Shown here in pieces: positions 2,370-63,760 of a DNA stretch of 64,000 nucleotides; within the stretch, counting starts at the first letter, position 1; every line of letters starts with the position of its first letter. The DNA is from Waddliaceae bacterium (GTDB lineage Bacteria > Chlamydiota > Chlamydiia > Chlamydiales > SLFE01): positions 64,001-128,000 of the forward strand of contig CAWAPJ010000001.1 in assembly GCA_963783885.1 (NCBI GenBank), written 5' to 3'. The notes under the pieces were generated by a model. That model was not told the origin of the DNA. It searched no databases and saw only the letters and a list, made by a program, of their open reading frames with translations. A program made the position numbers and the translations under genes.

Positions 2370-2786
2370 ACCCTGATTGCTACCTAAACTTGTTGTTAAA
2401 GTCTTTCGTTGGATTCAGATGCGTAGACTCGATTTGAAGGCAAGGGTAATCCCCTGCCGATAATCGAGGCTTAGCAGATGGATTCAATGAAAGATTTTAA
2501 CGACAATAGTCTCTATGATACTTCCTTAGCCAAAAAAGGGGGCATCATGGAAACTTACGCAACAACAGTTTATGTCAGCAGTGAAGAAATCCTTCGAATT
2601 TTGGGGATTAAAGACGATCCTCAATCTCAAATGCCCAACGCAGAAGTGATAACTTTTGCTATTTTATCAGCAAAATATTTTTCTTGTAACTATAAAATGT
2701 CCAGATATTTATGTAAAAGATTACGATTATTCAGAGCTATTTTAAACAATAGCCGGCTAAATCGCCGAATTCATAAAATTCCTTGG
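2370..2786 (+). mobile_element. truncated IS982-family element (left end plus 5' third of transposase)
   Basis: Begins with TIR ACCCTGATTGCTACCTAAAC; near-identical to the copies at 24978 and 55939 up to the internal CTTGG, where a MITE begins. Confidence 0.9.
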
Positions 2787-2901
2787 ACCCTGATTGCTAC
2801 CTAAACCTTAGCTAGAGCTTACACGAGCACACCGTCGACGCTACAGTTGTATCTGGCGCACTCGTGTAAGCTCTAGCTAAGGTTTAGGTAGCAATCAGGG
2901 T
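2787..2901. mobile_element. palindromic MITE made of two IS982 right ends
   Basis: Perfect 42-bp inverted arms 2786-2827 / 2861-2902 matching the IS982 right end; no ORF. Confidence 0.88.
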
Positions 2902-10357: not shown

Positions 10358-10386
10358 GCAAGCACTGAGATGCTTGCGTTTTTTTT
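10358..10386 (+). terminator. intrinsic terminator after rpmB
   Basis: GCAAGCA-ctgaga-TGCTTGC stem followed by a T-run. Confidence 0.75.
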
Positions 10387-24977: not shown

Positions 24978-26121
24978 ACCCTGATTGCTACCTAAACCTT
25001 AGCTAGAGCTTACACGAGTGCGCCAGATACAACTGTAGCGCCTCGGCAAGGGTAATCCCTTGCCGAGGCGCTACAGGCAGTAGATGGTGTGCTCGTGTAA
25101 GCTCTAGCTGAGCTCCCCTTTGCATAAAAACGAAACACTATAGGCAAGAATTGCACAGAATACTTTTATCAAAAAGCCTTGTTCAGTGCAGAACTTAAAA
25201 GTTCTGGGGAAAAGGTTTGTTATGCAGCTAAATGTCGTCTCGACAATCTGTCGCTTGCTGCTAATTTCCCTCTCTTCAATTGGTGTTCGGACTCTATTCT
25301 TTGCTTTACATCCCCGTTTTGCAAGCAATGTAATTTGTTCTTCTTTCAAGATGTCTTCTAAATCAAAGCAATTATACGCACCATCTGCATAAAGTTTAGA
25401 ATCTGGTGGAATGTCCAGTTTCATTTCCCAGAGCACCTTTACATCGCTTACTGCTCCTGGCTTGAAAAGAACTTCAACCGGCTTGCCTTCGCTCGTCACA
25501 ATCATATGAACTTTTATGCCGCAAAAGTAACGCTTTTTAGAAGCTGCGAAACCTAAATACCTTCGTTCTAGAAAAACCTTCCGTTTATCGATTCTATTTT
25601 TCTGACAACATGAAACTGGAAAGCTGTCTATAGCAAAACCCTGATCTTTATTTATTTGCTTAAAAAATAGAGCTAAAAAACGGAAAATGGCGTTCCAACA
25701 AATCCAAGGAATTTTATGAATTCGGCGATTTAGCCGGCTATTGCTTAAAATAGCTCTGAATAATCGTAATCTTTTACATAAATATCTGGACATTTTATAG
25801 TTACAAGAAAAATATTTTGCTGATAAAATAGCAAAAGTTATCACTTCTGCGTTGGACATTTGAGATTGAGGATCGTCTTTAATCCCCAAAATTCGAAGGA
25901 TTTCTTCGCTGATGACATAAACTGTTGTTGCGTAAGTTTCCATGATGCCCCCTTTTTTTGGCTAAGGAAGTATCATAGAGACTATTGTCGTTAAAATCTT
26001 TCATTGAATTCATCTGCTAAGCCTCGATTATCGGCAAGGGATTACCCTTGCCTTCAAATCGAGTCTACGCATCTGAATCCAACGAAAGACTTTAACAACA
26101 AGTTTAGGTAGCAATCAGGGT
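24978..26121 (-). mobile_element. IS982-family insertion sequence, full length
   Basis: TIR ACCCTGATTGCTACCTAAAC at both ends; 5-bp direct repeat CTATG. Confidence 0.95.
25104..25943 (-). CDS. IS982-family DDE transposase
   Basis: IDSFPV, YFCGIKVH, ADGAY, RQIVETTFS motifs; 279 aa. Confidence 0.93.
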   Translation of the reverse strand: METYATTVYVISEEILRILGIKDDPQSQMSNAEVITFAILSAKYFSCNYKMSRYLCKRLRLFRAILSNSRLNRRIHKIPWICWNAIFRFLALFFKQINKDQGFAIDSFPVSCCQKNRIDKRKVFLERRYLGFAASKKRYFCGIKVHMIVTSEGKPVEVLFKPGAVSDVKVLWEMKLDIPPDSKLYADGAYNCFDLEDILKEEQITLLAKRGCKAKNRVRTPIEEREISSKRQIVETTFSCITNLFPRTFKFCTEQGFLIKVFCAILAYSVSFLCKGELS

Positions 26122-26254: not shown

Positions 26255-27892
26255 TCACGCGAGAAGGTTTCTGATCAATTTTTGGGACTCGTCAGAAAGC
26301 GGGTCGGCAAGAAGATTCTTGAGACTTTTCTCTTCTACCCGCACAAATCGGTAAAGCGGAATCCCTTTTCTGATTAATGAAAGGGTGTATTGGGGCTTGC
26401 TTAGGAGAATCTGAAAATGGGGAAGGTGAATTTCTGCAAGCTGCTTTATATCCACACCGCCATTTTTTAAAATCGAAAGAGATTTCAAGTTTGAAAGAGC
26501 TACTTTGAACTCCTCAAGCAAAAATGGCTCAAGATCGCTTATAGAAAGGCCCAGTTCAGGCATTATTTCCAGGAGTGGAAAACGAGAAAAAGCATAAACA
26601 GCCTGATCTTTGGACAGTTTGAAAAGCTCTTTTGGAGGTGTTCCCGATTTCTCAAGTTTCAGAATACTGGCGGCATGCCTTAAAACCTCGGAAAGAATCA
26701 AAGGATAACGAGTCAGATCATTTAAAGTGAGGCCGCTTTTTATCAGCTTTTCTACCTGCGCAGGATAAGCAGTCAGAGTCTCGATGACATCGATATCGAT
26801 TTCAAGTATTGATTGCCTAAAAACGCCAAGCTTTTCTGATATGTCTATCATAGGGCCGTAGCGGTCCTGATGTTTTAGGACATCTTCAAACTGCCGGTCG
26901 GAAAGCGGACTGAGATCCTTGAGACCCACCCCCACCTCCGACAACGCTAAAAAACCTTCTCGATTTTGGAGTAATAGGTCTGTTTTGGCATGCTTTAACG
27001 TTGCCAAGCCCATGAAAATATCCGTGTCTCTCTCTTTTGCTGTGAGAAAAAATCCACTATTTTTAAAAAGTTTCTCCAAATTATACGAATCGATTTTAAA
27101 CAGAATTTTTTGGGGCGCGTTTTGACCGAGAAGACGTGAAAACGCCTCTCCATGAGAAAGGATCATAAACATCTGCCAAAAATCAAGTCCTTCCAGATCC
27201 TTTCTTTCAATAAGCGGTTGAAAAGCCTCAGCCTCTCTGAGCTTGCCCGAATCTATCGTTCCAATCGTTTCGAACTCGACACCCAAATCCAGCAGCTTGA
27301 TAATCTCGGGAACATGTTTTAAAAACCATCCGAAATCCCAATCGGGAAGGGGGACTAGCTGCTCCCATTTGACGCCATGCTCCAAAAGAGACAGTGTTTG
27401 CTCGGGCCGAATCAGCATCTCCTCAACCCAATTCCATCTCAATTTCAGAAGATCATCGACAGTTTCGAACTTTTTTAGGATAGAGGAAATCGCATCGGGA
27501 TGCTGGAGAATCAATCCAAGCTGATAACCACTGAAGCGGACAAGCTCTCGAATAGAAATTCCCGACTGAAGAATGACAGCAAGACCTTCTGTATGATGCA
27601 GCACCTCGATAAGCTGGGGTGAATCAAAAAGGTAAAAATCCTGAGAAGAAAATCCTTTTGAAACCAGTTCAATGACCCGCTCCGACTCGATGCAAAGAAC
27701 CTGCAGTTCCTGCCAAGAAAATTCTAAAAGCTCGTTAAAAGTAAAAATCTTTTTAGCGATGAGCTTCCTGACAGCTGAAGGATATTCCAAAATTGCAGTC
27801 CGATGCCCGACTTTCGTGCTTGCAGCGATTTTTGGCCAATCTTCTTCTGCTATGACTCCTTTAAGCTCATCGGGCATCTGCGGAACAGTCAT
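26255..27892 (-). CDS. hypothetical protein built of ~31-aa tandem helical repeats
   Basis: Consecutive units VILQSGISIRELVRFSGYQLGLILQHPDAIS, SLLEHGVKWEQLVPL..., KLEKSGTPPKELFKL..., ILKNGGVDIKQLAEI... Confidence 0.75.
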   Translation of the reverse strand: MTVPQMPDELKGVIAEEDWPKIAASTKVGHRTAILEYPSAVRKLIAKKIFTFNELLEFSWQELQVLCIESERVIELVSKGFSSQDFYLFDSPQLIEVLHHTEGLAVILQSGISIRELVRFSGYQLGLILQHPDAISSILKKFETVDDLLKLRWNWVEEMLIRPEQTLSLLEHGVKWEQLVPLPDWDFGWFLKHVPEIIKLLDLGVEFETIGTIDSGKLREAEAFQPLIERKDLEGLDFWQMFMILSHGEAFSRLLGQNAPQKILFKIDSYNLEKLFKNSGFFLTAKERDTDIFMGLATLKHAKTDLLLQNREGFLALSEVGVGLKDLSPLSDRQFEDVLKHQDRYGPMIDISEKLGVFRQSILEIDIDVIETLTAYPAQVEKLIKSGLTLNDLTRYPLILSEVLRHAASILKLEKSGTPPKELFKLSKDQAVYAFSRFPLLEIMPELGLSISDLEPFLLEEFKVALSNLKSLSILKNGGVDIKQLAEIHLPHFQILLSKPQYTLSLIRKGIPLYRFVRVEEKSLKNLLADPLSDESQKLIRNLLA

Positions 27893-29450: not shown

Positions 29451-29606
29451 GCCCTGATTGCTACCTAAACCTTAGCTAGAGCTTACACGAGTGCGCCAGA
29501 TACAACTGTAGCGCCTCGGCAAGGGATTACCCTTGCCTTCAAATCGAGTCTACGCATCTGAATCCAACGAAAGACTTTAACAACAAGTTTAGGTAGCAAT
29601 CAGGAT
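29451..29606 (-). mobile_element. 156-bp non-autonomous IS982 derivative (right end fused to left end)
   Basis: Both TIRs present with single substitutions; internal junction within TCGGCAAGGG shared by both ends; flanks TCTAG/CCTAG. Confidence 0.88.
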
Positions 29607-33167: not shown

Positions 33168-34721
33168 ATGATGATGAGATCAAAAATTCTATTAACTTTT
33201 CTGACATTTGTCAGCTTGGCATCTCAGGTACAGGGGTATATGAATCCCGATCCAAACCATATCACAATTATAGATAATGGAAGAGTCATCGAGATGACTC
33301 CTAACGGATTTGACACTAATCAACCTTCCCAAGACACAATCAACCTTCAATGGGTGTTCGATACTTTTCCAAATGGCGATATCAGTCTAAGTGCCGGCAC
33401 ATTCCACATCAGCACCATGATTGAAGCCGTTAACTATCAAGGAAAAATTGAAGGAGCAGGGAAAGACTCCACTTTTCTCGTGGGACGAGGACCTCTTGTC
33501 GATGGAGATTATGTTTTTCCAGAACTCAATCAGGATTTTAAAACCAGACTCTACCCATCAGGCGTTCCCCATTTGATTTGGTTTCACCCATCGCAAGGGG
33601 CTGCCAATGATTGGGTTACAAATAAAGTGGATTTAGAAATCAAGGATTTGACAATTCGTCTGGATGGAGTCGGTCCCGCCATCACTTATTTTGGCGTTCC
33701 GGTAAGATCCATTTGGTCTCTTCTCATTATCACAGGAAGCAATGCCGTTATTACAGAGGCTTCCGGCAACGTTTCTCATGTTGACTTGGAGCTGAAAGAT
33801 GTTAACTTACAGGCTCAGGAAGTTTCCTACACTCTCAATGGAAACAATTTAAGCAATCCAAATGCTGCTGCCGGGGTACTTCTTTATGGAGGAGAAAACT
33901 GGGTCCCTTCAATTGGGTTGAATGGATATACTGAAATTGATCATGGGCCTGTCAATGCTGTAGTCGACATTCGCGATTGCACTTTCGACCTCTTCCACCA
34001 ATTCGCTATTGGAGTCGAGGCAACTTATACAACGAATCCGGGAACAGGATATACCTTCCCCGATAATCCCGTATTCCCCCCATCGGCTGTTTCAATCAGG
34101 GATAATACATTTAATGGAGTGGGCAGCAGCCTCGGAATTCCGGGATCATTCGGATTTAATACACTCGTCCTGTCCCCAAGCGAAACTACTATCACAATCA
34201 AAGACAATATATTAAATGACGTTGTGTCAAGCGGGATTGGTTTTTTGAGAGGAGTTGCTATTACGATTCCTGAACTCACCTCATTTGCTACAATTAAGGA
34301 TAATACAATCAACATGGTAGCCAACCCATTAAATGGAGCCGGCATCCGCTTGTTCGATTTCTCCTTTTTTGCTGGCACGCCGCTCATTGTATATGCGCAA
34401 GATAACATTCTAACGGGAGGCACCGGATATAATAAACCTCTGATTGAACATGCTATGGGTACTGCGGCAACCTTTGACGATAATAAGTTCTTCGGAGAAG
34501 CCCAATCGGGAATTTCGGCAGGGAATACGATTTCACCTCTGCCGCCAACTATTCCACTTCCCGTTGTTCAAGATACTATCTTCGACAATGATTTTGGCAA
34601 CTTGACTTCTTCAATTGCCAATATCATACTAGGGCCGGCATCCTCATACAATACAGTAACGGTTGAGAATGCCAGCGATGTTCTAAACCAGGGAGTCGGC
34701 AATACAGTTATTGTAGAGTAA
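33168..34721 (+). CDS. secreted right-handed parallel beta-helix (pectin lyase-like fold) protein
   Basis: Signal peptide; ISLSAGTFHI..I, GAGKDST start motif; repeated IRDNTF/IKDNIL/IKDNTI/FDDNKF asparagine-ladder units. Confidence 0.75.
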   Translation: MMMRSKILLTFLTFVSLASQVQGYMNPDPNHITIIDNGRVIEMTPNGFDTNQPSQDTINLQWVFDTFPNGDISLSAGTFHISTMIEAVNYQGKIEGAGKDSTFLVGRGPLVDGDYVFPELNQDFKTRLYPSGVPHLIWFHPSQGAANDWVTNKVDLEIKDLTIRLDGVGPAITYFGVPVRSIWSLLIITGSNAVITEASGNVSHVDLELKDVNLQAQEVSYTLNGNNLSNPNAAAGVLLYGGENWVPSIGLNGYTEIDHGPVNAVVDIRDCTFDLFHQFAIGVEATYTTNPGTGYTFPDNPVFPPSAVSIRDNTFNGVGSSLGIPGSFGFNTLVLSPSETTITIKDNILNDVVSSGIGFLRGVAITIPELTSFATIKDNTINMVANPLNGAGIRLFDFSFFAGTPLIVYAQDNILTGGTGYNKPLIEHAMGTAATFDDNKFFGEAQSGISAGNTISPLPPTIPLPVVQDTIFDNDFGNLTSSIANIILGPASSYNTVTVENASDVLNQGVGNTVIVE

Positions 34722-34865: not shown

Positions 34866-35908
34866 ACCCTGATTGCTACCTAAACTTGTCGTTAAGGTCT
34901 TTCATTGAATTCAGATGCGTAGACTCGATTTGAAGGCAAGGGTAATCCTTTGCCGATAATCGAGGCTTAGCAGATGGATTCAATGAAAGATTTTAACGGC
35001 AATAGACTCATGTGATAATTCCTTAACCAAAAAAAGGAGTACATCATGGAAACTTATGCAATAACCGTTGATGTCATCAGCGAAGAAGTCCTTCGAATTT
35101 TAGGGGTTAAAGACGATCCTCAATCTCAAATGTCCAATGCAGAAGTTATAACTTTTGCAATTTTATCAGCAAAATATTTTTCTTGTAACTATAAAATATC
35201 CAGATATTTATGTAAGAGATTGCGATTATTCACAACTATTTTAAGCAATAGCCGACTTAACCGTTGAATCCATAAAATTCCCTGGACTTGTTGGAACGCT
35301 ATTTTCCGTTTTTTAGCTTTATTTTTTAAACAAATAAATAAAGATCAAGGTTTTGCTATAGATAGCTTTCCAGTTTCTTGCTGCCAGAAAAATAGAATCG
35401 ATAAACGGAAGATCTTTCTAGAGCGAAGGTTTTTTGGTTACGCAGCTTCTAAAAAGCGTTATTTTTGTGGCATAAAAGTTCATATGATTGTGACGAGTGA
35501 AGGCGAGCCGGTTGAAGTTCTTTTCAAGCCAGGAGCAGTAAGCGATGTAAAGGTACTCTGGGAGATGGAGTTGGACATACCGCCAGATTCTAAACTCTTA
35601 AGCAGATGGCGCCTATAATTGTTTTGATCTAGAGGACATCTTGCATGAAGAACAAATTACATTGCTTGCAAAACGGGGATGCAGAACGAAAAAACGGGTC
35701 CGAACACCTATTGAAGAGAGGGAAATCAGTAGCAAGCGACAAATTGTCGAAACGACGTTTAGCTGTATAACAAATCTTTTTCCTAGAACTTTTAAGGTCT
35801 GCACTGAACAAGGCTTTTTGATAAAAGTATTCTGTACAATTCTAGCCTATAGCGTTTCATTTTTATGCAATAGTAAGCTCTAGCTGAGGTTTAGGTAGCA
35901 ATCAGGGT
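34866..35908 (+). mobile_element. diverged IS982-family element with pseudogenised transposase
   Basis: Same TIRs, 5-bp direct repeat CTAAG; premature stop at 35265 and stop/frameshift near 35600; lacks the right-end nested hairpin. Confidence 0.92.
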
Positions 35909-36375: not shown

Positions 36376-37434
36376 TTAAGCTGCTACCGGTTCCTTTTTT
36401 ATACTCTCTTCCTTGCTGTCTCCGTACCGGAAGGGTTCGCGTTTCAAAAGCATCGCATGCATGATGACAGCCAGCTTCCTGCCGAGGGCAACTGTCGCCT
36501 TTTTGAAGCCCTTTTTTCTTTGAAGTTTCAACGCCCATGCCTTAGGTTTACACCAACTTCTAGTTCGGCTTAGCATCACAACTGCCGACTCCACTAACAA
36601 CGACCTGGTTTGTCTAGATCCGCACTTTGACACACGACCTAATCTTTGGGTCTCTCCTGAGGAGTACTGCCTTGGTGTTAGCCCCAAAAATGCAGCGACG
36701 TTCTTCGAGTTTTTGAAGCGGGTGTAATCACCAATCGCCACGAGATAGCTCAAGGACGTTAAAACCCCGATACCAGGAATTGTCATCAGCAGTTGGACAT
36801 CGGCGTTGTCTCGAGCTATCGACGAGATCTGTTTCTCGAGGTTGGTTATTTGTTCGGTTAAACATTCATATCCCTTTAAAAGTGCTTCGATAGCTGCTTG
36901 TACGGAGCTTATTTGATCTTGGATGCACTCCCGAACCAGCTTGATAAACAACAACTTTCCGGTTGTAGAAACAGTTAGTCCATAAGCTTTTAAAAAACCG
37001 CGAATTGCATTTTTTAGCTTTGTGCGCTCTTGAACCAGGGTGCTCCTTGACTGAAGGAGAACGCCTGTATCGACAAGCTCTTGGTTTTTGACGAACACCT
37101 CTTTGTAAAAGCCTCCTCGCATGGCATTAGCTATTCCCCGCGCATCATTGGTATCTGTCTTGTTGATGTTCATGGACAGAATCGAGGACATATGTCTTGC
37201 ATCCACGCATAGGACTGGGAGGCCGAGCTTTCTTAGCTCAGTAACCAACCAGTGGCTTAGGGAGCCTGTTTCAATCCCAATCTTATCGAGCTGAACCCCG
37301 GTTTTCAAAAGCTTCCGTTGGATTGATGAGGGGTCTGTTTTGGTATGTCCTTCATACACTACCTCTCCTTGGTGGTCTACGACACAAATAAAAGTCTCTT
37401 TCAAAGATACGTCTAATCCTACATAATGGTTCAT
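36376..37434 (-). CDS. IS110-family DEDD recombinase/transposase
   Basis: GLDVS, IETG, KTDTNDA (DEDD); TIPGIG, GLTPRQYSSG (catalytic Ser), VALGRKL. Confidence 0.95.
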   Translation of the reverse strand: MNHYVGLDVSLKETFICVVDHQGEVVYEGHTKTDPSSIQRKLLKTGVQLDKIGIETGSLSHWLVTELRKLGLPVLCVDARHMSSILSMNINKTDTNDARGIANAMRGGFYKEVFVKNQELVDTGVLLQSRSTLVQERTKLKNAIRGFLKAYGLTVSTTGKLLFIKLVRECIQDQISSVQAAIEALLKGYECLTEQITNLEKQISSIARDNADVQLLMTIPGIGVLTSLSYLVAIGDYTRFKNSKNVAAFLGLTPRQYSSGETQRLGRVSKCGSRQTRSLLVESAVVMLSRTRSWCKPKAWALKLQRKKGFKKATVALGRKLAVIMHAMLLKREPFRYGDSKEESIKKEPVAA

Positions 37435-37622: not shown

Positions 37623-38567
37623 TTAAGCTGCTATTAATTCACTTTCAGGCATTCCCAGCTTTGTCATTATATTTAGTGCTTCACATTTTGCCCTTGATTC
37701 AGCCCTTTGGGTTTCCAGAGTTCTACTTCTTAAATCATTTCCAAAGAATCGTTTAAATCTAAACATGGCTGTTTCTGCAAGTGATCGACGATGATAACCT
37801 TTCAACTTTTTCCATAATTTTCTTGCATCATCATCACCTCCTAAACCTGAAATTTCCAGCAAACTGATATTCCGCATCTTCCAAGAAGGAGATATGTTTT
37901 CTCGAAAAACAGCATTCCTATTGGGTGGAATAATAGGAATTGAGCCGTGAACTACATTTGCAGCATAGCATCGCTTAGTATCATAAGCCCCATCTCCATA
38001 TGTGCGCTTAACTGATTTCGGCATTACCTCGAGAAGTTTTGGATACACTTCACAATCTGCAACGTTATTTTCAGTAAGAATTTCGAAAATAATTTCGTGA
38101 GAGTCAGGGCAGACTGCCAGATGGAGCTTTCTCCATGTTCGCCTTTTACTGATTCCATGCTGCCTAACTTTCCATTCACCCTCTCCGTACACTTTCAAAC
38201 CGGTTGAATCGATTACAATATTGGTGACTTTTTTTTTCGAAAGTTTCTTCAACTCTTGCCCCAACAACTTAGCTCTCCGACAAATTTGAGTATAAGAAGG
38301 AATCGATAAACCAACAGATAAAATCATAACAAGAGATGTCAAAAATCCTTCGAGTGCTCTCAATGGAAGATGAAAAACCGATCGAATAATGAGCGCGGTG
38401 AGAATAGCGTCATCAGAATAGAGTTTTGGACGCCCCTTTTTTCCTATTTCTTTTGGAGCCATCCACTTATTGATAGCATCTTCAGAAAACCAAACAGTTA
38501 TGCTTCCCCTTTGAATAAGAGATTTGTTATAGTCGTTCCAGTTGCGAATGCGATATTTTGCCTTCAT
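37623..38567 (-). CDS. IS5-family (IS903 group) DDE transposase
   Basis: NWNDYNKSLIQRGSIT.W, IDSTGLKVYGEGEWKVRQHG, RRTWRKLHLAV, GDGAYD, YHRRSLAETAMFRFK. Confidence 0.95.
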   Translation of the reverse strand: MKAKYRIRNWNDYNKSLIQRGSITVWFSEDAINKWMAPKEIGKKGRPKLYSDDAILTALIIRSVFHLPLRALEGFLTSLVMILSVGLSIPSYTQICRRAKLLGQELKKLSKKKVTNIVIDSTGLKVYGEGEWKVRQHGISKRRTWRKLHLAVCPDSHEIIFEILTENNVADCEVYPKLLEVMPKSVKRTYGDGAYDTKRCYAANVVHGSIPIIPPNRNAVFRENISPSWKMRNISLLEISGLGGDDDARKLWKKLKGYHRRSLAETAMFRFKRFFGNDLRSRTLETQRAESRAKCEALNIMTKLGMPESELIAA

Positions 38568-47478: not shown

Positions 47479-48636
47479 GTGTCAAGCGAACTTATCATAA
47501 ACCTCGCTGCCATTGGTGAAAATATTGACCGAATCCGCTCCCACCTGCCTGCAAACACCCGCATCATGGCCATTCTCAAAGGGGGAACTTACGGTATTGG
47601 GCGGCCGGTTGAACTCGCGCATTTTTTAAGCTGCCAGGGAATCGATATTTTCGGCTTTGCCTTTGTCGATGAAGCCGTTGAACTCCGCAGGGCAGGTTTT
47701 CAAAACGATCTCTTTGTCTTAAATCCCCTTCCCGGCGATGCCGAAAATGTCGCCAAGCACAATCTTCAGGCAGCCGCAGGCGATATAGAGACGCTGATTG
47801 CCTTTGAGGCAAAAGGAAAAGTGAAAGTCCACCTGAATATCAATACCGGAATGAACCGCCTCGGCAGCCCGCTCCATGAAGCCGCAAGACTTGCCGAGTA
47901 TATTCAGATGTCTAAAAATTTAACGCTCGAGGCTGTGATGTCCCACCTTGTGGCCGCGGAAAATCCCCTGCACGACGCCTTTACCTTAAGGCAAATTCAG
48001 GAGATCATCGCAACTGCAGCCTCTTTGAAGGAGGCGGGTATTGAATTTCCCTTTGCCCATATTCACAATTCCGCAGGCGCCTTAAGATTCGCTCATCCCG
48101 AATTCAATTTGGTCAGAATCGGATTGATCATGTATGGAATCCACCCCTCGCCGGAAACGAGGAAGACACTCCCCTTAATCCCTGCCTTAACCTTGAGATC
48201 CCGCATCGTGTCACTCAACCGGATAAACCGCGGAGACACTGTCAGCTATGGCAGAACCTACAAAGCAAAGGCAATGAGTACCCTGATTGCCACTGTTCCA
48301 CTTGGTTACTTTGACGGCTTGCACCGCAGCTATAGCAATCGGGCATCAGTGCTTGTCAAAGGAAAAAAAGCAAAAATCGTCGGCACAGTCTGCATGGACT
48401 TTATGATGATCGATGTAACCGGCATACCCGATGTCGACGTCGGCGACACTGTCACACTCTTCGGGCAAGACGACTGCGGCAATGAACTCTCGCCTGAGGA
48501 ATTTGCCGCTTCCGGAGGCACGATAGCCCATGAGCTGGTCACTTGCATGGGACCAAGGATTAAAAGGAATTTTTTAGGCGGCCTCGGAGACCTCCCTACC
48601 GAATTCGATCATCGGAATGTAAACTTTTGCACCTAA
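47479..48636 (+). CDS. alr: alanine racemase
   Basis: INLAAIGEN, MAILKGGTYG (PLP lysine), NTGMNRLG, HNSA, VRIGL, VSYG, GYFDG, GTVCMD. Confidence 0.92.
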   Translation: MSSELIINLAAIGENIDRIRSHLPANTRIMAILKGGTYGIGRPVELAHFLSCQGIDIFGFAFVDEAVELRRAGFQNDLFVLNPLPGDAENVAKHNLQAAAGDIETLIAFEAKGKVKVHLNINTGMNRLGSPLHEAARLAEYIQMSKNLTLEAVMSHLVAAENPLHDAFTLRQIQEIIATAASLKEAGIEFPFAHIHNSAGALRFAHPEFNLVRIGLIMYGIHPSPETRKTLPLIPALTLRSRIVSLNRINRGDTVSYGRTYKAKAMSTLIATVPLGYFDGLHRSYSNRASVLVKGKKAKIVGTVCMDFMMIDVTGIPDVDVGDTVTLFGQDDCGNELSPEEFAASGGTIAHELVTCMGPRIKRNFLGGLGDLPTEFDHRNVNFCT

Positions 48637-50808
48637 CATCGGTCTTTTGAACAAAGAATCAAAAGCGCTGCACAGCTCTTTGCCATAGTTTTCAAATCCT
48701 AAAGCTTCGCGCTTTCCCTCCACAACCTGCAAGGCTCCAAGCATCCGATTCAAGGGCTCGGGCAAAATCGCCCTTTCCCGAATGAAAATCGCAGGACCGT
48801 AAATCATCGATTCGATATATTCGATTTCCTCATCGGAAATCTTTTGATTCTGCAAAATTTTATAGAAAGCCAGCATAAATACAGAAGCCGCTCCCCCAAT
48901 GTCAATGGCGTCTTTGCAGCTTAAGCTGAAACTGAAGGGGCGGACGATATCAATGAGTTTAAGCTCTAGGAAAAAATGAAAGAGCGTAATAAAGCTCTGT
49001 CTGTCTTTCATGGATAAATATTTTTCTCCATTGAAAAAAAATTCATGGATTGCTGCTGTCGCATTATCGATAAAGCTTGCAGTCAGATTCTTTTTCACGC
49101 TGTCCGGAAAGTAGTATCCTGCGGAAGAACTTTTCAATTGTTGTTTAAAGCCTTCGATAAAATCTTCGACGTCATCCTGATTTTCATAGGTCCCGCTCTG
49201 ATGATAAAACTCTGTATCGACAGCCAGGGTCAAGACAGTCAAACTATCTGAAAAGAGTGGAGCATTTTGAAGCTGCTCCAAAACCTGGCAGCGTGAGAAT
49301 TCCCTCCAGGATGTTCTGTCCTGTAAATTCACAAGAAGGTGTTTTGCCTTCCTTCCCCTTTGACTTGTCGACAGGAGAAAGCCTTTGAATTCATCGAGTA
49401 CAGACGCCTTATTGACAAAGACCTGCCGTGTTGGAGAGGCCATGCGCAAATTAACAACCCGATCATCGCCAAGATATAAATCGAACCATCTGTGGGGAAG
49501 ATTGTGCTGATGCAACGAGTCAAAAGCGGCATATTTGCCCTCTTCGAGCGATTCAAGAATCCGCTTTAAGGGTCCGCTGGCATGCTTTTTGAAAGATTTG
49601 ACAATTTCAGCGTAATCATAAGCCAGCCTGCTCCATAAAAATATCCCTCTTTCCTGCTCAACGGACGCCGAGCGGGGAATTGCCTCCTTTGCCTCATTCA
49701 AGATCTCGTGGACATTCGGCAGAAGCTCCTGCTGGATGTGCGAATGCAAAAAAGTTGCTCTGCATAGATGCTGCAATACGCTCACGAGGCAGTTTGCCAA
49801 AATGTTTGACGGCTTTGGAGGATAAACCAGTAGTTTTTGATAGTAGCGGTTATTGAGAGCTTCCCTGAGATATCCCTGAAAATCGGCGAAATAGTGAATG
49901 CACGATTTCCCTTCCTTATTTTTTCTGTTGGAATGGAGATTTTTTGGATCTGCGGCGAGCATCAGGGCCATAATCGCGCTGCTCATTTCTCTTACTTGTG
50001 CACGGCCTTTATAACGAAACGCCTCATGGTAGAATCGTTTTAACGACAAATTCAGCGAGTGAAGAATATTGAGCGCTGCCACATGGCACATCACATCGCG
50101 CCAGTTGTATACCCTGGCAAAAATATCGGTTTCTTCATCAGAATAACTTCCGAATTCGCAAACAAGTTTAATATTCCGCAAAAGTCTGGGACTGAAAAAT
50201 CGGCTCCCGTCTTCTTTTCTCATTAATAGAAGCTCATATTCATTGTCCCGCTTAACCATTTCCAGATCCACAAAAACATGCTGGCTCTTTTCTTTTTTTC
50301 TCGCTCTAGCTTTTCTAAGCAATTCCTTGGAAGGACCGGTTTTCGCGAGGCCGAAAATCCATTTGCTGAGCATCCCCTCGTCTACCTGTCTTTCCACTTT
50401 CCTGGTATAAAACTCCTGAAGCCTTTTATATTCGTTCATCTGGGTCACGCTTTTTGTGCTTTTCGTTTTGAAGAGACTAGAAAATTTGTCCAAATTTTTA
50501 GCCGCTTCGCCGACCAGCACCATAATCGACCTGACATCTTCGATTTTTTTCTCCGAAACAACAGGCTCTTCTTCATAGATCAATTTCACGTAGTGCAAAA
50601 TAGTCTGAAAAATCTCCTTAATCCGACCTTCGGAAAGCTCCTTAGAAACATTCTTGATTTTTTTGACCCTTCCAGAAATCGGCTTGACTGTTTCAAGGTT
50701 AGCCAGAGGGACAGCCGGCTCCTCTTCCCCCAGCTGAGCTATAAGAGATAGGGTATTAAGCGCTTCTGAAATACTTACCCTTTTATCATCATCTTTTTTA
50801 CTTTCCAT
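48574..50808 (-). CDS. large hypothetical protein, probably conserved in chlamydiae
   Basis: ~745-aa ORF; likely start MESKKD at 50808 after a GAGGA RBS; SLSCKDAIDIG motif. Confidence 0.75.
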   Translation of the reverse strand: MESKKDDDKRVSISEALNTLSLIAQLGEEEPAVPLANLETVKPISGRVKKIKNVSKELSEGRIKEIFQTILHYVKLIYEEEPVVSEKKIEDVRSIMVLVGEAAKNLDKFSSLFKTKSTKSVTQMNEYKRLQEFYTRKVERQVDEGMLSKWIFGLAKTGPSKELLRKARARKKEKSQHVFVDLEMVKRDNEYELLLMRKEDGSRFFSPRLLRNIKLVCEFGSYSDEETDIFARVYNWRDVMCHVAALNILHSLNLSLKRFYHEAFRYKGRAQVREMSSAIMALMLAADPKNLHSNRKNKEGKSCIHYFADFQGYLREALNNRYYQKLLVYPPKPSNILANCLVSVLQHLCRATFLHSHIQQELLPNVHEILNEAKEAIPRSASVEQERGIFLWSRLAYDYAEIVKSFKKHASGPLKRILESLEEGKYAAFDSLHQHNLPHRWFDLYLGDDRVVNLRMASPTRQVFVNKASVLDEFKGFLLSTSQRGRKAKHLLVNLQDRTSWREFSRCQVLEQLQNAPLFSDSLTVLTLAVDTEFYHQSGTYENQDDVEDFIEGFKQQLKSSSAGYYFPDSVKKNLTASFIDNATAAIHEFFFNGEKYLSMKDRQSFITLFHFFLELKLIDIVRPFSFSLSCKDAIDIGGAASVFMLAFYKILQNQKISDEEIEYIESMIYGPAIFIRERAILPEPLNRMLGALQVVEGKREALGFENYGKELCSAFDSLFKRPMLGAKVYIPMIEFGREVSEAA

Positions 50809-50996
50809 AAAACCATCCTCACAACTATCTACAACTATTATCCCATCATAAAATATTTTATACAATTAAAATTCAAATTAATTTTATTAGGTATTTAAAT
50901 TAATATTTAAAATATGTTATAATCCACCAAATTTTGATCATTTCCATTTAATCTCAAAATCGTTATGGTTAAGTGATTAAGAAGGAGAGCGCCGCT

Positions 50997-55248: not shown

Positions 55249-55938
55249 TCTCTTCATAGCCCAACTCGATAAGCAGATCTCCGACATTTTTTTTGAAAAC
55301 ATCTTTTATCTTTTCATCAAAGGATTCTCTCCATATGGAAGTCTTGGCACGGCAGAAGGTCGCTCCTGTTCCATAGACAGAGGAAAACACTTCAAGGAGG
55401 TTTTCGTCCGAGATTTCTATATCGAGAAACCGGGCAATTTTTCTCAGCTCGGCAAGATGCTCCTCTTCGGTTCAACAGCCTCCGGTAGGGCCGATAAGCT
55501 TTTCAAAACTTAAGATGCAGCAATTGGGGCTCTTATGCCACCCCTGAAAAGCCTGGACATGCCATCTGGTGAAATTCCACCAATCGGTCCCCTCGATCAT
55601 GACAATCATCTGTTTGTCGAAAGGGAGACGGGAATACCACTCGAGAGGAAAGGGGCAGCAAATGTTTTTTCCATAATATTTGGCAGCCGAAACGACAAAA
55701 TCCCTGATGTCTCTTGCAATATGAAAAACTTTTGCTCTCTTCCAGATAGGTTCTTAGAGAGTCGCTGCAAGGGATATGAGAAGCCAAAAACCGCCCTTCA
55801 TTTTTATATCGATTCAACATGTCAACAATTCTGCCTTGGGTATGGGCGGCCTGTGAAGATATATCGGAACATAGCCTAGATTTTGAAGAAGATATGTGTA
55901 TTTCCACCGGGAGCAGTCCCTATAGTTGAAGTCCGAAG

Positions 55939-57083
55939 ACCCTGATTGCTACCTAAACTTGTTGTTAAAGTCTTTCGTTGGATTCAGATGCGTAGACTCG
56001 ATTTGAAGGCAAGGGTAATCCCTTGCCGATAATCGAGGCTTAGCAGATGAATTCAATGAAAGATTTTAACGACAATAGTCTCTATGATACTTCCTTAGCC
56101 AAAAAAAAGGGGGCATCATGGAAACTTACGCAACAACAGTTTATGTCATCAGCGAAGAAATCCTTCGAATTTTGGGGATTAAAGACGATCCTCAATCTCA
56201 AATGCCCAACGCAGAAGTGATAACTTTTGCTATTTTATCAGCAAAATATTTTTCTTGTAACTATAAAATGTCCAGATATTTATGTAAAAGATTACGATTA
56301 TTCAGAGCTATTTTAAGCAATAGCCGGCTAAATCGCCGAATTCATAAAATTCCTTGGATTTGTTGGAACGCCATTTTCCGTTTTTTAGCTCTATTTTTTA
56401 AGCAAATAAATAAAGATCAGGGTTTTGCTATAGACAGCTTTCCAGTTTCATGTTGTCAGAAAAATAGAATCGATAAACGGAAGGTTTTTCTAGAACGAAG
56501 GTATTTAGGTTTCGCAGCTTCTAAAAAGCGTTACTTTTGCGGCATAAAAGTTCATAGGATTGTGACGAGCGAAGGCAAGCCGGTTGAAGTTCTTTTCAAG
56601 CCAGGAGCAGTAAGCGATGTAAAGGTGCTCTGGGAAATGAAACTGGACATTCCACCAGATTCTAAACTTTATGCAGATGGTGCGTATAATTGCTTTGATT
56701 TAGAAGACATCTTGAAAGAAGAACAAATTACATTGCTTGCAAAACGGGGATGTAAAGCAAAGAATAGAGTCCGAACACCAATTGAAGAGAGGGAAATTAG
56801 CAGCAAGCGACAGATTGTCGAGACGACATTTAGCTGCATAACAAACCTTTTCCAAAGAACTTTTAAGTTCTGCACTGAACAAGGCTTTTTGATAAAAGTA
56901 TTCTGTGCAATTCTTGCCTATAGTGTTTCGTTTTTATGCAAAGGGGAGCTCAGCTAGAGCTTACACGAGCACACCATCTACTGCCTGTAGCGCCTCGGCA
57001 AGGGATTACCCTTGCCGAGGCGCTACAGTTGTATCTGGCGCACTCGTGTAAGCTCTAGCTAAGGTTTAGGTAGCAATCAGGGT
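55939..57083 (+). mobile_element. IS982-family insertion sequence, full length
   Basis: TIRs as above; 5-bp direct repeat CGAAG. Confidence 0.95.
56118..56957 (+). CDS. IS982-family DDE transposase
   Basis: Differs from the 25104-25943 copy at three residues (S>P, M>R, P>Q). Confidence 0.93.
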   Translation: METYATTVYVISEEILRILGIKDDPQSQMPNAEVITFAILSAKYFSCNYKMSRYLCKRLRLFRAILSNSRLNRRIHKIPWICWNAIFRFLALFFKQINKDQGFAIDSFPVSCCQKNRIDKRKVFLERRYLGFAASKKRYFCGIKVHRIVTSEGKPVEVLFKPGAVSDVKVLWEMKLDIPPDSKLYADGAYNCFDLEDILKEEQITLLAKRGCKAKNRVRTPIEEREISSKRQIVETTFSCITNLFQRTFKFCTEQGFLIKVFCAILAYSVSFLCKGELS

Positions 57084-57262
57084 CGAAGGGATCCAGCAAG
57101 CCTTTTTCTCGGTAAGCTTCTCTAGAATCGGGATGAGAAGATGACTGCCGGTCTTCGGCATTGTCGTGACGATAAATTCGGCAGCTGATAAACTGATCGT
57201 CAGGAATAAAGCGACAAACAAATAGCGAAACATCGCAGTTATTATAGACAAAGTCAGCTATT

Positions 57263-61729: not shown

Positions 61730-62246
61730 AACATTGAATAGCAACATTATCCTCGATGAGTTTCTCAAAGTCAAAAAAGAACATCTTCGTTTCCCAAACG
61801 GTTATGAGCACAACCACTACACCCTTACACTGCCTGCGAAAACATCAGTTTCAATCGTACCCGTCACAGAAGATGGGCAGCTAATCATCAACGAAGAGTA
61901 CCGGCACCCCGCCGGGGGAAGAGTTCTCAGCCTTCCCGGCGGTTTTCTTCATGAAAATGAATCGCCCAAAGAAGGAGGCAGACGTGAGCTGCTTGAAGAA
62001 ACGGGCTTTGAGGCAAAGAATTTTAAGGAACTGGGTCGATCATTCCCTATGCCGGGCATCTGCGACCAAAAAGTGATCTATGTTCTCGCTGAAAACTGCC
62101 GAAAAACACGCCAGCCCGAGCTTGAGGGGGGAGAGATTATACAAACGTTTACATTCTCGCTTGAAGAGCTCAGGGATAAAATCAGGCAAGGCGCCGCAGT
62201 CGACGGCATCCTTCTTACCGGCCTGTGCTTTTATCAGATGGGGTAG
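61719..62246 (+). CDS. NUDIX hydrolase (ADP-ribose pyrophosphatase-like)
   Basis: Nudix box GFLHENESPKEGGRRELLEETGF; EYRHP. Confidence 0.9.
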   Translation: MQIKTLNSNIILDEFLKVKKEHLRFPNGYEHNHYTLTLPAKTSVSIVPVTEDGQLIINEEYRHPAGGRVLSLPGGFLHENESPKEGGRRELLEETGFEAKNFKELGRSFPMPGICDQKVIYVLAENCRKTRQPELEGGEIIQTFTFSLEELRDKIRQGAAVDGILLTGLCFYQMG

Positions 62247-63760
62247 GCCGCTTTAAGCGCCTCCTGCCTTTTTTTAAATTCATTTTTAATCGCATCGCAT
62301 CGTTTTATATCTCCGCGCTTCTTAGCAGCCATAAACTCATTTTTGATAAATCCCATGACAGGAACCGGAGGAATTTTGCTGTTTCTTAACTGTTTTTGAT
62401 ATTTCTCTTTAGTGTCGATTATGCTATTAAATGCCTTGCTCAATTCCTTCTTTTGCAAAAGTTGATTCAAACACATTGCAATCTCAAAATTTTTTACTCT
62501 GATAGACTCATTGAACAAAGCGATGAGATTGTCCATGAGATTTTTTCGTTGTTTTATCTTTTTTGTTTCCAAGATCTCTTGATGCAAAACCTGATAAAGG
62601 CTATCAGCAAGCCGATCGATATTACGGGACACGAATTTTTCTATACAATTTGCATGCCACCCTGCCATGATTTCTGTCACTTCATGGACTCTTAATTTTC
62701 TTATAAGCATTCGGCGATCTACGTTTTCGGATAGGCCTGCTTCGCCCGCGCTGCGGTCTCCAGGAACGTATATCAGCGAACGCTTACATTTTCTTTTTTT
62801 CAAGTCTGAAACTTTGGGGGATTTCATCTTATCAATTCGCAATATTAATTGCCTTATGTAGCCCAATCTTTCACACAGAAGATCAGAAGATGAAGTTAAA
62901 ACAAATATTTTCTGAATATAAACTCTTAACTGATATAAAAGGACGAATGTATTGTTGATATTACTTTTCCATATCTTATCAATCACCATTGTGTGATCAG
63001 GGTCTATGACAAATGAACATTGAAAATACCGATTGTTTTCTAGACAATGCTCCAAATAAGAATGCATTAATTCCCTTGTTACGACAATATTATGATCCAA
63101 CAGGCTGATCTGGGGATCTTTGATGTCAGGACCTTGTAGAGTTTCATTAAAAAAAATGCGACGGCATAAATTTTTATATATATCAGGATATTTGTTTTTC
63201 AGAGAATTATAAGTCCTCTTGATTAACAATTGGTATATTTCTTCATCCGACAAATCAGGTTTTTTTTCCCACAATATCTTCATGATAATGAAATGACACA
63301 GTTGGACTGAGCGATAGGATCTTAGACAAGGCTTTAAATCTTCGGATAATTGTTCCAAAGTATATTTGACATTGTTCAAGACGATAGAGTTGTATTCAGA
63401 TTGCAATTGATTTCTAAATTTCTCCGATTTTGATATTAATTGAAAATAGAAGATTCCCGAAAATTTCCAATTATACTCAAATCCAAATTTAGAAAATTTT
63501 GTTGCGACATCCAGATCCGACCAACTGGCAGGTTTCAGTTGAATCACTTTTTGAAGAATATTTGTGACTGTAGACAAATTCCTGTTTTTTTCAATGCAAC
63601 CAATCTGATAAAGGTCTTTTAAACACTCTTCCGCAATGTTGTCAATTTTGGGGCTTTTTTCAATCTGCCGATTGACATATCCTAGAGAAAACTCTACTGG
63701 ATCCGAACCTTCTTTATAATCCGGATATAACGTTCTCCAGTTATTCTGATAAATTATCAT
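62234..63760 (-). CDS. hypothetical protein with degenerate C-terminal RasGEF-like region
   Basis: EILETKKIKQRKNLMDNLIAL...KNFEIAMCL and PPVPVMG resemble CDC25 motifs. Confidence 0.6.
   Translation of the reverse strand: MIIYQNNWRTLYPDYKEGSDPVEFSLGYVNRQIEKSPKIDNIAEECLKDLYQIGCIEKNRNLSTVTNILQKVIQLKPASWSDLDVATKFSKFGFEYNWKFSGIFYFQLISKSEKFRNQLQSEYNSIVLNNVKYTLEQLSEDLKPCLRSYRSVQLCHFIIMKILWEKKPDLSDEEIYQLLIKRTYNSLKNKYPDIYKNLCRRIFFNETLQGPDIKDPQISLLDHNIVVTRELMHSYLEHCLENNRYFQCSFVIDPDHTMVIDKIWKSNINNTFVLLYQLRVYIQKIFVLTSSSDLLCERLGYIRQLILRIDKMKSPKVSDLKKRKCKRSLIYVPGDRSAGEAGLSENVDRRMLIRKLRVHEVTEIMAGWHANCIEKFVSRNIDRLADSLYQVLHQEILETKKIKQRKNLMDNLIALFNESIRVKNFEIAMCLNQLLQKKELSKAFNSIIDTKEKYQKQLRNSKIPPVPVMGFIKNEFMAAKKRGDIKRCDAIKNEFKKRQEALKAAYPI

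What the first reader, a model, noticed from the sequence alone, without database searches (positions are those of the whole stretch)
55959..56075. IS982 left end folds into a rod whose stem varies only by G-U pairs
Seen: a 28-bp stem (55959-55986 / 56048-56075) encloses CTCGATT/AATCGAG and a GGCAAGGG-TAAT-CCCTTGCC cap. Across the copies at 2370, 34866 and 55939, non-Watson-Crick pairs fall at seven different stem positions, and all are G-U on the transposase-sense strand with none A-C. Inference: selection on a single-stranded (probably RNA) structure of ~120 nt upstream of the transposase, such as a regulatory leader, RNase III substrate or transposon-encoded ncRNA.
Basis: partly seen in the sequence, partly recalled or inferred. 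Interest (0 to 1): 0.7.

Follow-up and report, generated by a model that had tools for sequence, protein, structure and literature searches.

The report
Twin folding rods inside IS982 ends
A small jumping-DNA element of environmental chlamydiae carries a long, strongly conserved hairpin just inside each of its two tips that folds on only one strand, probably as single-stranded DNA during jumping rather than as an RNA leader, and gene-less copies built from this hairpin have spread through many related genomes.

Summary
The rod is real: seven G-U positions and no A-C in the 28-bp stem across the three copies. But it is not a transposase-sense leader. The right end carries a second rod that folds on the opposite strand, so each rod folds on the strand read inward from its own inverted repeat (IR). 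Among IR-anchored rods G-T outnumbers A-C 129:22, and the AGAT mismatch lies 47-48 nt from the tip in 34 of 39. 37 of 39 pairs covary. A model finds the rod in 69 of 150 Chlamydiales genomes: in IS982 ends, in ~160-nt gene-less minis (up to 147 per genome) and right behind tmRNA (5 of 30 loci). G-T bias does not prove RNA: integron attC DNA shows it too. Minis show no sense bias to neighbouring genes; one genome shows a replication-strand bias (72 of 100), three do not. Best reading (0.5): a cis-acting folded single-strand DNA site needed for spread. Rival (0.3): an RNA barrier to incoming transcripts. No Rfam match; not found in print. The scan noted the twin rods before on other copies in this genome.

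The parts
55934..55938 (+). Left copy of the 5-bp target-site duplication CGAAG
   Evidence: Same 5-mer at 57084-57088; other copies have C-W-N-W-G type flanks
55939..55958 (+). Left terminal inverted repeat, 20 bp, begins AC
   Evidence: Identical to the reverse complement of 57064-57083; 85 IR hits in the genome
55959..56075 (+). Left rod, 117 nt: 28-bp stem with four G-T pairs, tandem G-A, inner helices, second G-A loop, 8-bp cap; folds on the strand read inward from the left IR
   Evidence: covariation
55986..55989 (+). 5' AGAT of the conserved AGAT/AGAT tandem G-A mismatch
   Evidence: Near-invariant columns in alignment A1; 47-48 nt from the IR tip in 34 of 39 IR-anchored rods
56005..56029 (+). 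GAA/GA internal loop plus the GGCAAGGG-TAAT-CCCTTGCC cap (56008-56027), shared with the right rod
56045..56048 (+). 3' AGAT of the tandem G-A mismatch
56083..56122 (+). -10-like hexamer TATGAT (56083-56088) and a small hairpin that pairs the ribosome-binding site and start codon in read-through RNA
   Evidence: Predicted; similar hairpins predicted in rod-less relatives. Promoter function is inferred; the consensus scan found no full promoter here
56118..56957 (+). IS982-family DDE transposase, 279 aa, intact
   Evidence: NCBIfam NF033520 152.8 bits, cut-off 130; Pfam DDE_Tnp_1_3
56949..57063 (-). Right rod: different sequence, same architecture and same cap; folds on the strand read inward from the right IR (antisense to the transposase)
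   Evidence: -100.7 vs -84.8 kcal/mol as RNA, -56.1 vs -50.6 as DNA; G-T 4: A-C 1 inward
57064..57083 (-). Right terminal inverted repeat
57084..57088 (+). Right copy of the target-site duplication
2370..2786 (+). Truncated copy (IR, left rod, first part of the transposase)
2787..2901 (.). Gene-less foldback mini made of the right end (IR, collapsed right rod without cap, IR)
24978..26121 (-).
   Evidence: 99.6% identical; ends
29451..29606 (.). Hybrid mini: left and right half-rods joined at the shared cap, transposase deleted
34866..35908 (+). Divergent (about 90%) broken copy; left rod intact, right rod collapsed; TSD CTAAG

Best explanation
Each rod is a cis-acting subterminal site that works when one strand folds back on itself, most likely as single-stranded DNA, and the element needs it to spread. 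Shown: both ends carry a rod of fixed geometry that folds on the strand read inward from the IR; sequence is free but pairing, strand polarity and two mismatch motifs are kept. Inferred: when a replication fork crosses the element, the end it meets first has its folding strand exposed as lagging-strand template. The rod snaps shut beside the IR and presents two G-A distortions at a fixed distance from the tip. The transposase or a host partner reads these, which ties transposition to fork passage. Twin rods make this work from either direction. The same folding yields, as by-products, template-switch minis (IR-rod-IR) that can be mobilised in trans.
For: Mirror polarity at the two ends and in related elements of 32-77% protein identity. 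IR tip to AGAT 47-48 nt in 34 of 39. 37 of 39 pairs with two-sided changes; 88.7% paired against 37-49% in slid controls. Mutation pushes the other way: in this genome 8 right ends have a collapsed rod, each deletion unique, against 14 with a whole rod, and arm-homogenised copies are singletons (counted by hand). New changes in single copies are unbiased (G061: WC to G-T 12, WC to A-C 11; mixed in G000) while family-level differences are 260:46, which points to selection on copies that propagate, not on resident copies. Gene-less minis keep the rod at 64-147 matches per genome. No sense bias to neighbouring genes: 3:8 (G136), 8:5 (G061), 12:8 (G039). Single-rod minis in G136 lie with the folding strand on the C-rich strand in 72 of the 100 listed of 113 (p = 1e-5; 59 of 83 without the ambiguous region; 63 of 100 with the other boundary); G000 foldbacks 9 of 12 the same way, two-rod elements 13:12. 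G136 gave no sbcD match. Foldback, hybrid and homogenised products show the DNA does fold. attC precedent for G-T and purine skew in ssDNA (PMC5027507).
Against: The replication bias is not general: G219 83 of 147 (p = 0.14), G061 16 of 30, G039 16 of 30 (coarse or local skew only). The G136 mini has GGCC ends and no known parent, so it may not report on IS982. The bias runs away from the lagging template, which needs the extra assumption that copies in the active orientation are lost. Rod-less IS982 relatives transpose without it (8 chlamydial and 5 plasmid loci; 30 more loci). I know of no DDE transposase that reads folded ssDNA (recalled). About 11% G-U, peaks of G-T about 11 bp apart and the sense orientation at tmRNA fit RNA equally well. 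Two-sided changes can arise by arm-to-arm copying (seen in G219), so covariation alone overstates selection on pairs. No binding or transposition experiment exists.
Confidence: 0.5

Rival explanations
1. The rods act in RNA on host transcripts that run into the element from either side. The inward strand is exactly what such transcripts carry. The long G-U-containing stem is cut by RNase III or bound by a protein, which insulates the transposase gene from read-through and antisense RNA and, in minis, changes neighbouring RNA stability.
For: Same polarity argument as the best explanation. RNase III in 144 of 150 genomes. 28-bp near-perfect stem with about 11% G-U and an ~11-bp spacing of G-T peaks. 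All 5 of 5 rods at unbiased tmRNA loci, and all 10 tmRNA-type non-redundant rods, fold on the tmRNA strand. G136 minis are enriched in divergent spacers (17 of 29 with both neighbours called) and rarely follow a gene on the folding strand (4 of 30). NEMIS/Correia precedent (PMC2229807).
Against: No sense or antisense bias in tandem contexts in three mini families. Read-through protection is already predicted from a separate small hairpin over the ribosome-binding site, present in rod-less relatives too. The strict IR-to-motif distance is not needed for RNase III cutting (inference). Loops are T/A-rich with hardly any GNRA or UUCG. Gene-less minis have no transposase to protect. New mutations in resident copies are not G-U biased.
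Confidence: 0.3
2. The rod is a passenger: an independent ~160-nt hairpin repeat of Chlamydiales, or a self-renewing quasi-palindrome kept paired by template switching. IS982 lineages captured it, and it has no role in their transposition.
For: It also occurs with non-AC outer stems (GGCC ends in G136, REP-like palindromes in G034, tmRNA and tRNA 3' ends). Rod-bearing transposases are not one clade (p-AU 1e-43, although three 'no rod' rows there are fragments or decayed). Arm-to-arm copying is visible.
Against: Template switching erases mismatches, yet AGAT/AGAT, the GAA/GA loop and G-T polarity persist across deep lineages. Every IR-anchored rod starts about 20 nt inside the tip and faces inward. 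All transposase neighbours identified were IS982; none at 8 IS1595 loci. Rods are deleted often but rod-less copies do not spread in G000.
Confidence: 0.12
3. One reading: the left rod is a structured RNA on the transposase-sense strand, either a leader of the transposase message or an element-encoded small RNA bound by the transposase (bridge- or omega-RNA-like).
For: The left rod does fold best on the sense strand. Left and right caps are alike within an element and change together between elements, as a cognate binding site would.
Against: The right rod has the opposite polarity. A -10-like box sits downstream of the left rod. No promoter match upstream of either rod inside the element. No variable guide-like loop is seen in the alignment. 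No Rfam family.
Confidence: 0.08

Closest known systems
IS982-family insertion sequences (review PMC7335449; ISPasp1-3 from Parachlamydia)
   Same: One DDE transposase gene of about 280 aa passing NF033520, about 1.1 kb, 20-bp IRs starting AC, short target duplication.
   Different: About 117-nt strand-specific rods inside both IRs. The review's main text (parts 1-4 of 6 read) mentions none and states that the transposition mode is unknown. ISPasp3 (952 bp, gene at 105-929 in its table) has no room for them.
Integron attC sites (PMC5027507, passages)
   Same: Little sequence conservation, conserved fold and unpaired features, one strand favoured by G-T pairs (1.24 vs 0.39 per site) and purine skew.
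   Different: attC is recombined by a tyrosine integrase and lies between gene cassettes. Here the rods sit inside the IRs of a DDE element; no R/L boxes or integrase were sought or seen.
IS200/IS605 subterminal hairpins and REP/REPIN elements (PMC3971601 and PMC3733652, passages; details partly recalled)
   Same: Strand-specific hairpins at element ends; lagging-strand ssDNA as the substrate; derived small repeats.
   Different: Those use HUH transposases and have no terminal IRs or target duplication; their hairpins are about 20-40 nt. This element has a DDE enzyme, IRs, a 5-bp duplication and 117-nt rods facing inward at both ends.
Bacterial MITEs: Correia/NEMIS, ERIC, RPE (PMC2229807, part 1 of 3), Coxiella QMITEs (PMC5896051, passages), MITECca01 of Cardinium (PMC9769881, part 1 of 3)
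   Same: 100-200-nt gene-less repeats that fold into long stem-loops; MITECca01 derives from an IS982 element; NEMIS RNA is proposed to be cut by RNase III.
   Different: Here the long hairpin already exists at both ends of the autonomous parent, and one architecture with fixed internal motifs is shared by many unrelated mini families across an order.

Membership tests
IS982 | IS982-type DDE transposase | tested here: met
   NF033520 152.8 bits over cut-off 130
IS982 | Terminal IRs beginning 5'-AC, length about 1 kb | tested here: met
   20/20 IR starting AC, element 55939-57083; family traits from PMC7335449
IS982 | Target-site duplication of 2-10 bp | tested here: met
   5-bp duplications at three window copies
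Known structured RNA family (Rfam 15) | Score above a family's gathering threshold | tested here: not met
   Only sub-threshold hairpin matches in the window; only tmRNA itself in 8 related loci
Transposase mRNA leader | Structure lies on the sense strand within the transposase transcript | tested here: inconclusive
   Left rod is sense, right rod is antisense; -10-like box downstream of the left rod in 9 of 13; start site not mapped
RNase III substrate (NEMIS-like) | Long RNA duplex cut by RNase III in transcripts | not testable with these tools
   Stem is long enough and the enzyme is present in 144 of 150 genomes; not found in the 89% complete G000; RNA runs gave contigs only
attC-like folded ssDNA site | One strand favoured by G-T pairs and purine-rich mismatches, fold conserved over sequence | tested here: met
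   260 G-T vs 46 A-C; purine-purine mismatches 133 vs pyrimidine 36
attC-like folded ssDNA site | Recognised and recombined as ssDNA by a cognate enzyme | not testable with these tools
   No binding or cleavage assay possible
IS200/IS605 or REP/RAYT (HUH) elements | HUH transposase, no terminal IRs | tested here: not met
   DDE enzyme, perfect IRs and duplication
MITE (for the ~160-nt minis) | Short, gene-less, terminal IRs, target duplication, many copies | tested here: met
   G136: 254 IR hits, 128 model matches, 8-bp duplications read at three sites; G219 147 matches. In G000 the minis are single and look formed in place
Intrinsic terminator | Short GC hairpin followed by a U run | tested here: not met
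   None called at the left rod; one weak call inside the right rod on its poorly folding strand, 3 found against 1.2 in shuffles

The most novel reading that the evidence does not exclude
A branch of DDE transposases recognises its ends partly as folded single-stranded DNA, an attC-like structural site placed a fixed distance inside each IR, and so couples transposition to replication. The same ~160-nt hairpin module has become an order-wide family of mobile minis, some stacking in tandem at the tmRNA 3' end.
Probability: 0.27. Interest if true: 0.85.

Novelty: new variant of a known kind. Interest (0 to 1): 0.63.

Why it matters
The transposition pathway of IS982 is stated to be unknown (PMC7335449). 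These elements offer a handle: a conserved, strand-specific structure of fixed geometry at both ends, rod-less relatives as controls, and natural minis. If the rods are read as folded DNA, structure-specific ssDNA recognition would extend from HUH and tyrosine enzymes to a DDE transposase. If they act in RNA, they define an undescribed structured RNA class spread over about half of the environmental chlamydial genomes searched. The case also shows that a G-U-only stem is not proof of RNA.

Tried and rejected
Strand-specific mutation bias as the source of G-T excess: rejected, because one strand has G-T at one end and A-C at the other and coding transitions are symmetric (39:37; private changes 4:7; between-subfamily changes are unpolarised, so this control is weak alone). 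Rfam: no family. RNA evidence: 17 runs listed for a related element, none with raw reads; 4 laid, contigs only, possibly DNA, so nothing on transcription. Viral contigs: 0 matches to one degenerate rod pattern. IS1595 as parent of the GGCC-ended minis: 5 of 201 genomes have it, G136 not among them, no rod at 8 loci. Rods outside Chlamydiota: none at 5 plasmid IS982 loci; other phyla could not be searched with the model. Rod as a core host RNA: 0 of 26 genomes of family f35 (1.0-1.3 Mb) and 25 of 30 tmRNA loci lack it. SbcCD purging as cause of the G136 bias: no sbcD match there; over cut-off in 11 of 150. Covariation of the inner G(A/C)A with C(G/A)A motif (48/15/3/11, p = 2e-4) is confounded by lineage and not used. 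My first G039 orientation count (9:9) had wrong anchors in some loci and was redone with model strands (12:8); the G039 change counts suffer from the same fault and are not used. A likeness of the cap to an IR-IR junction does not hold in distant members. Transposase structure and complex prediction were not run.

Full report
Observation. The window holds an IS982 element at 55939-57083 with perfect 20-bp IRs and a 5-bp duplication; its 279-aa product passes NCBIfam IS982. The left rod is as described: -87 kcal/mol on the + strand (z -11.7) against -65 on the - strand. In the 28-bp stem the three copies have wobbles at seven positions, all G-T. The claim is limited to that stem: the 2370 copy has one A-C in the cap, and the inner rod has seven transversion mismatches.

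The missing half. The right end carries a second rod (56949-57063) of unrelated sequence but the same build and the same 20-nt cap. Its wobbles are A-C on the transposase-sense strand and G-T on the other (4 G-T, 1 A-C inward). The rule is therefore 'folds on the strand read inward from each IR'. This also rules out a simple strand mutation bias; coding transitions are symmetric, 39:37.

The genome. 85 IR hits in 2.16 Mb. Counted by hand: 14 right ends with a whole rod and 8 with a collapsed rod, every deletion different; four left and five whole right foldback minis (IR-rod-IR); two left/right hybrids joined at the cap; two copies whose arms were made perfect by arm-to-arm copying. The DNA folds and template-switches, and mutation pushes toward deletion or perfect palindromes. 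None of these derivatives is amplified here.

Relatives. Neighbours in the databases are chlamydial; 75 of 301 order genomes match the transposase. Elements of 32-77% identity carry twin inward rods with fully diverged stems. On 26 rods, 37 of 39 pairs show two-sided changes and 88.7% of cells pair, against 37-49% with slid partners; arm-to-arm copying can make such changes, so the kept mismatches are the stronger sign. A covariance model hits 69 of 150 order genomes and 57 of 150 in a high-completeness draw, none of 26 in family f35. From 163 held rods I kept 91 at under 80% identity and could anchor 87. Outer stems: 260 G-T, 46 A-C; for IR-anchored rods, whose strand is set beforehand, 129 vs 22; 74 rods favour G-T, 3 A-C, 10 tie (kin are not independent). 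AGAT lies 47-48 nt from the tip in 34 of 39. G-T pairs cluster 2-7, 16-17 and 24-27 bp from AGAT. Rod-less IS982 exist: no convincing match at 8 chlamydial and 5 plasmid loci among 18 searched without filters or at 30 loci of the canonical group. Rod-bearing transposases fall in several deep chlamydial lineages, not one clade.

Outside full elements. Most other hits are ~160-nt foldback minis: 64 matches in G039, 69 in G061, 128 in G136, 147 in G219; G053 (92) has many two-rod minis. Most begin AC like IS982; some do not (GGCC in G136). At tmRNA, 5 of 30 loci chosen by tmRNA score carry a unit directly at the 3' end, all folding on the tmRNA strand. Units are 158-162 nt, start at the tmRNA's last seven bases, are followed by a repeat of them, and form tandem arrays (seven units in L159). 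G000 has none at its tmRNA.

RNA or DNA. G-T over A-C shows single-strand folding, not RNA: attC bottom strands have 1.24 G:T against 0.39 (PMC5027507, passages). Against a sense leader: the mirror rod, and a -10-like hexamer 5-7 nt after the left rod in 9 of 13 elements with a separate hairpin over the ribosome-binding site, also predicted in rod-less relatives. Minis show no sense bias in tandem gene contexts (3:8, 8:5, 12:8; 30 loci each), though G136 copies favour divergent spacers (17 of 29). New changes in single copies are unbiased (12:11 in G061), unlike family-level differences. In G136 the folding strand is the C-rich strand in 72 of the 100 listed copies (63-72 depending on a boundary set from sampled skew windows); G000 foldbacks agree (9 of 12) and two-rod elements are unbiased (13:12). 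G219 (83 of 147), G061 and G039 (16 of 30 each) show no clear bias. For RNA: RNase III is nearly universal (144 of 150), the stem suits it, and the tmRNA units are all sense. Sequencing runs were uninformative.

Mechanism. I favour (0.5) a cis-acting folded-ssDNA site needed for propagation. A fork entering from either side exposes the folding strand of the first end as lagging template (geometry; hairpins on that template are documented in PMC3315005, passages). The rod closes beside the IR and offers fixed-distance distortions to the transposase or a host protein. The fold, polarity and geometry are shown; recognition and fork coupling are inferred. An RNA barrier to incoming transcripts is the main rival (0.3); passenger (0.12) and sense leader or guide RNA (0.08) follow.

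Known and new. It is an IS982 by every test run; the minis are MITEs. The twin rods match no Rfam family. Six literature searches on the element or its kind gave no description. Seen: PMC7335449 parts 1-4 of 6 (main text; its three supplements not opened, they hold IR alignments that could bear on novelty); PMC2229807 and PMC9769881 part 1 of 3; passages of PMC3196728, PMC3971601, PMC5027507, PMC5896051, PMC3733652, PMC3315005; listing only for the rest. Subscription papers and ISfinder were not searchable. Earlier notes of this scan describe the twin rods on other copies in this genome; I read them after reaching my view. Verdict: real, new variant of a known kind, interest 0.63.

Noticed in passing
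L159 1903-3142 (G042), also L171, L176, L186, L188, L063, L069, L152: Rod units of 158-162 nt sit directly at the tmRNA 3' end, pair with its acceptor strand and are delimited by repeats of its last seven bases. L159 has seven tandem units (162, five of 179, 182 nt), then a 1.2-kb insert with one gene and another unit (L101).
   Followed up: partly
G136:C1, e.g. L071 1268-1430, 1480-1642, 2283-2445: About 127 copies of a rod mini with GGCC ends and 8-bp duplications, two subfamilies, no parent transposase found; two copies interrupt a transposase-like gene that looks ISKra4-type (label recalled, not tested).
   Followed up: partly
G000 C35:5527-6020, C4:15029-15190, C5:36370-36490, C36:7740-7860, C39:16070-16190: Further rod-bearing end families with other IR sequences in the same genome; C36:7740 has a rod without a clear IR.
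   Followed up: partly
L061 1480-1719, L094, L057: Rod minis next to tRNA-Gly, a tRNA-Leu-like gene (read by eye) and an rpsN-like gene, folding on the strand opposite to the gene; L094 duplicates the tRNA 3' end.
   Followed up: no
L075, L079, L084, L093 (G034): Rods embedded between short REP-like palindromes that also occur alone nearby.
   Followed up: no
L161, L163, L166, L167, L168, L173, L174, L179, L187 just 3' of tmRNA: A near-identical terminator-like hairpin follows tmRNA in 9 of 30 loci from different families, which may mark the end of a shared integrative element.
   Followed up: no
G053, e.g. L104 1268-1622, L116, L121: Many two-rod minis of about 400 bp (IR, rod, short spacer, rod, IR).
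   Followed up: no
window 36376-37434 (-) and 37623-38567 (-): An IS110-family transposase (NF033542) and an IS5-family transposase (NF033579) lie next to the divergent IS982 copy.
   Followed up: no
window 2987-4759, 10385-12568, 26255-27892, 33168-34721, 48574-50865, 62234-63760: Long ORFs (508-763 aa) with no NCBIfam match; two also had no Pfam match.
   Followed up: no
L013 1318-2484: Contigs of two public runs join across the element, showing the empty site in related strains.
   Followed up: no
G000 IS982 insertion sites: Target duplications follow a C-W-N-W-G pattern of 5 bp.
   Followed up: partly
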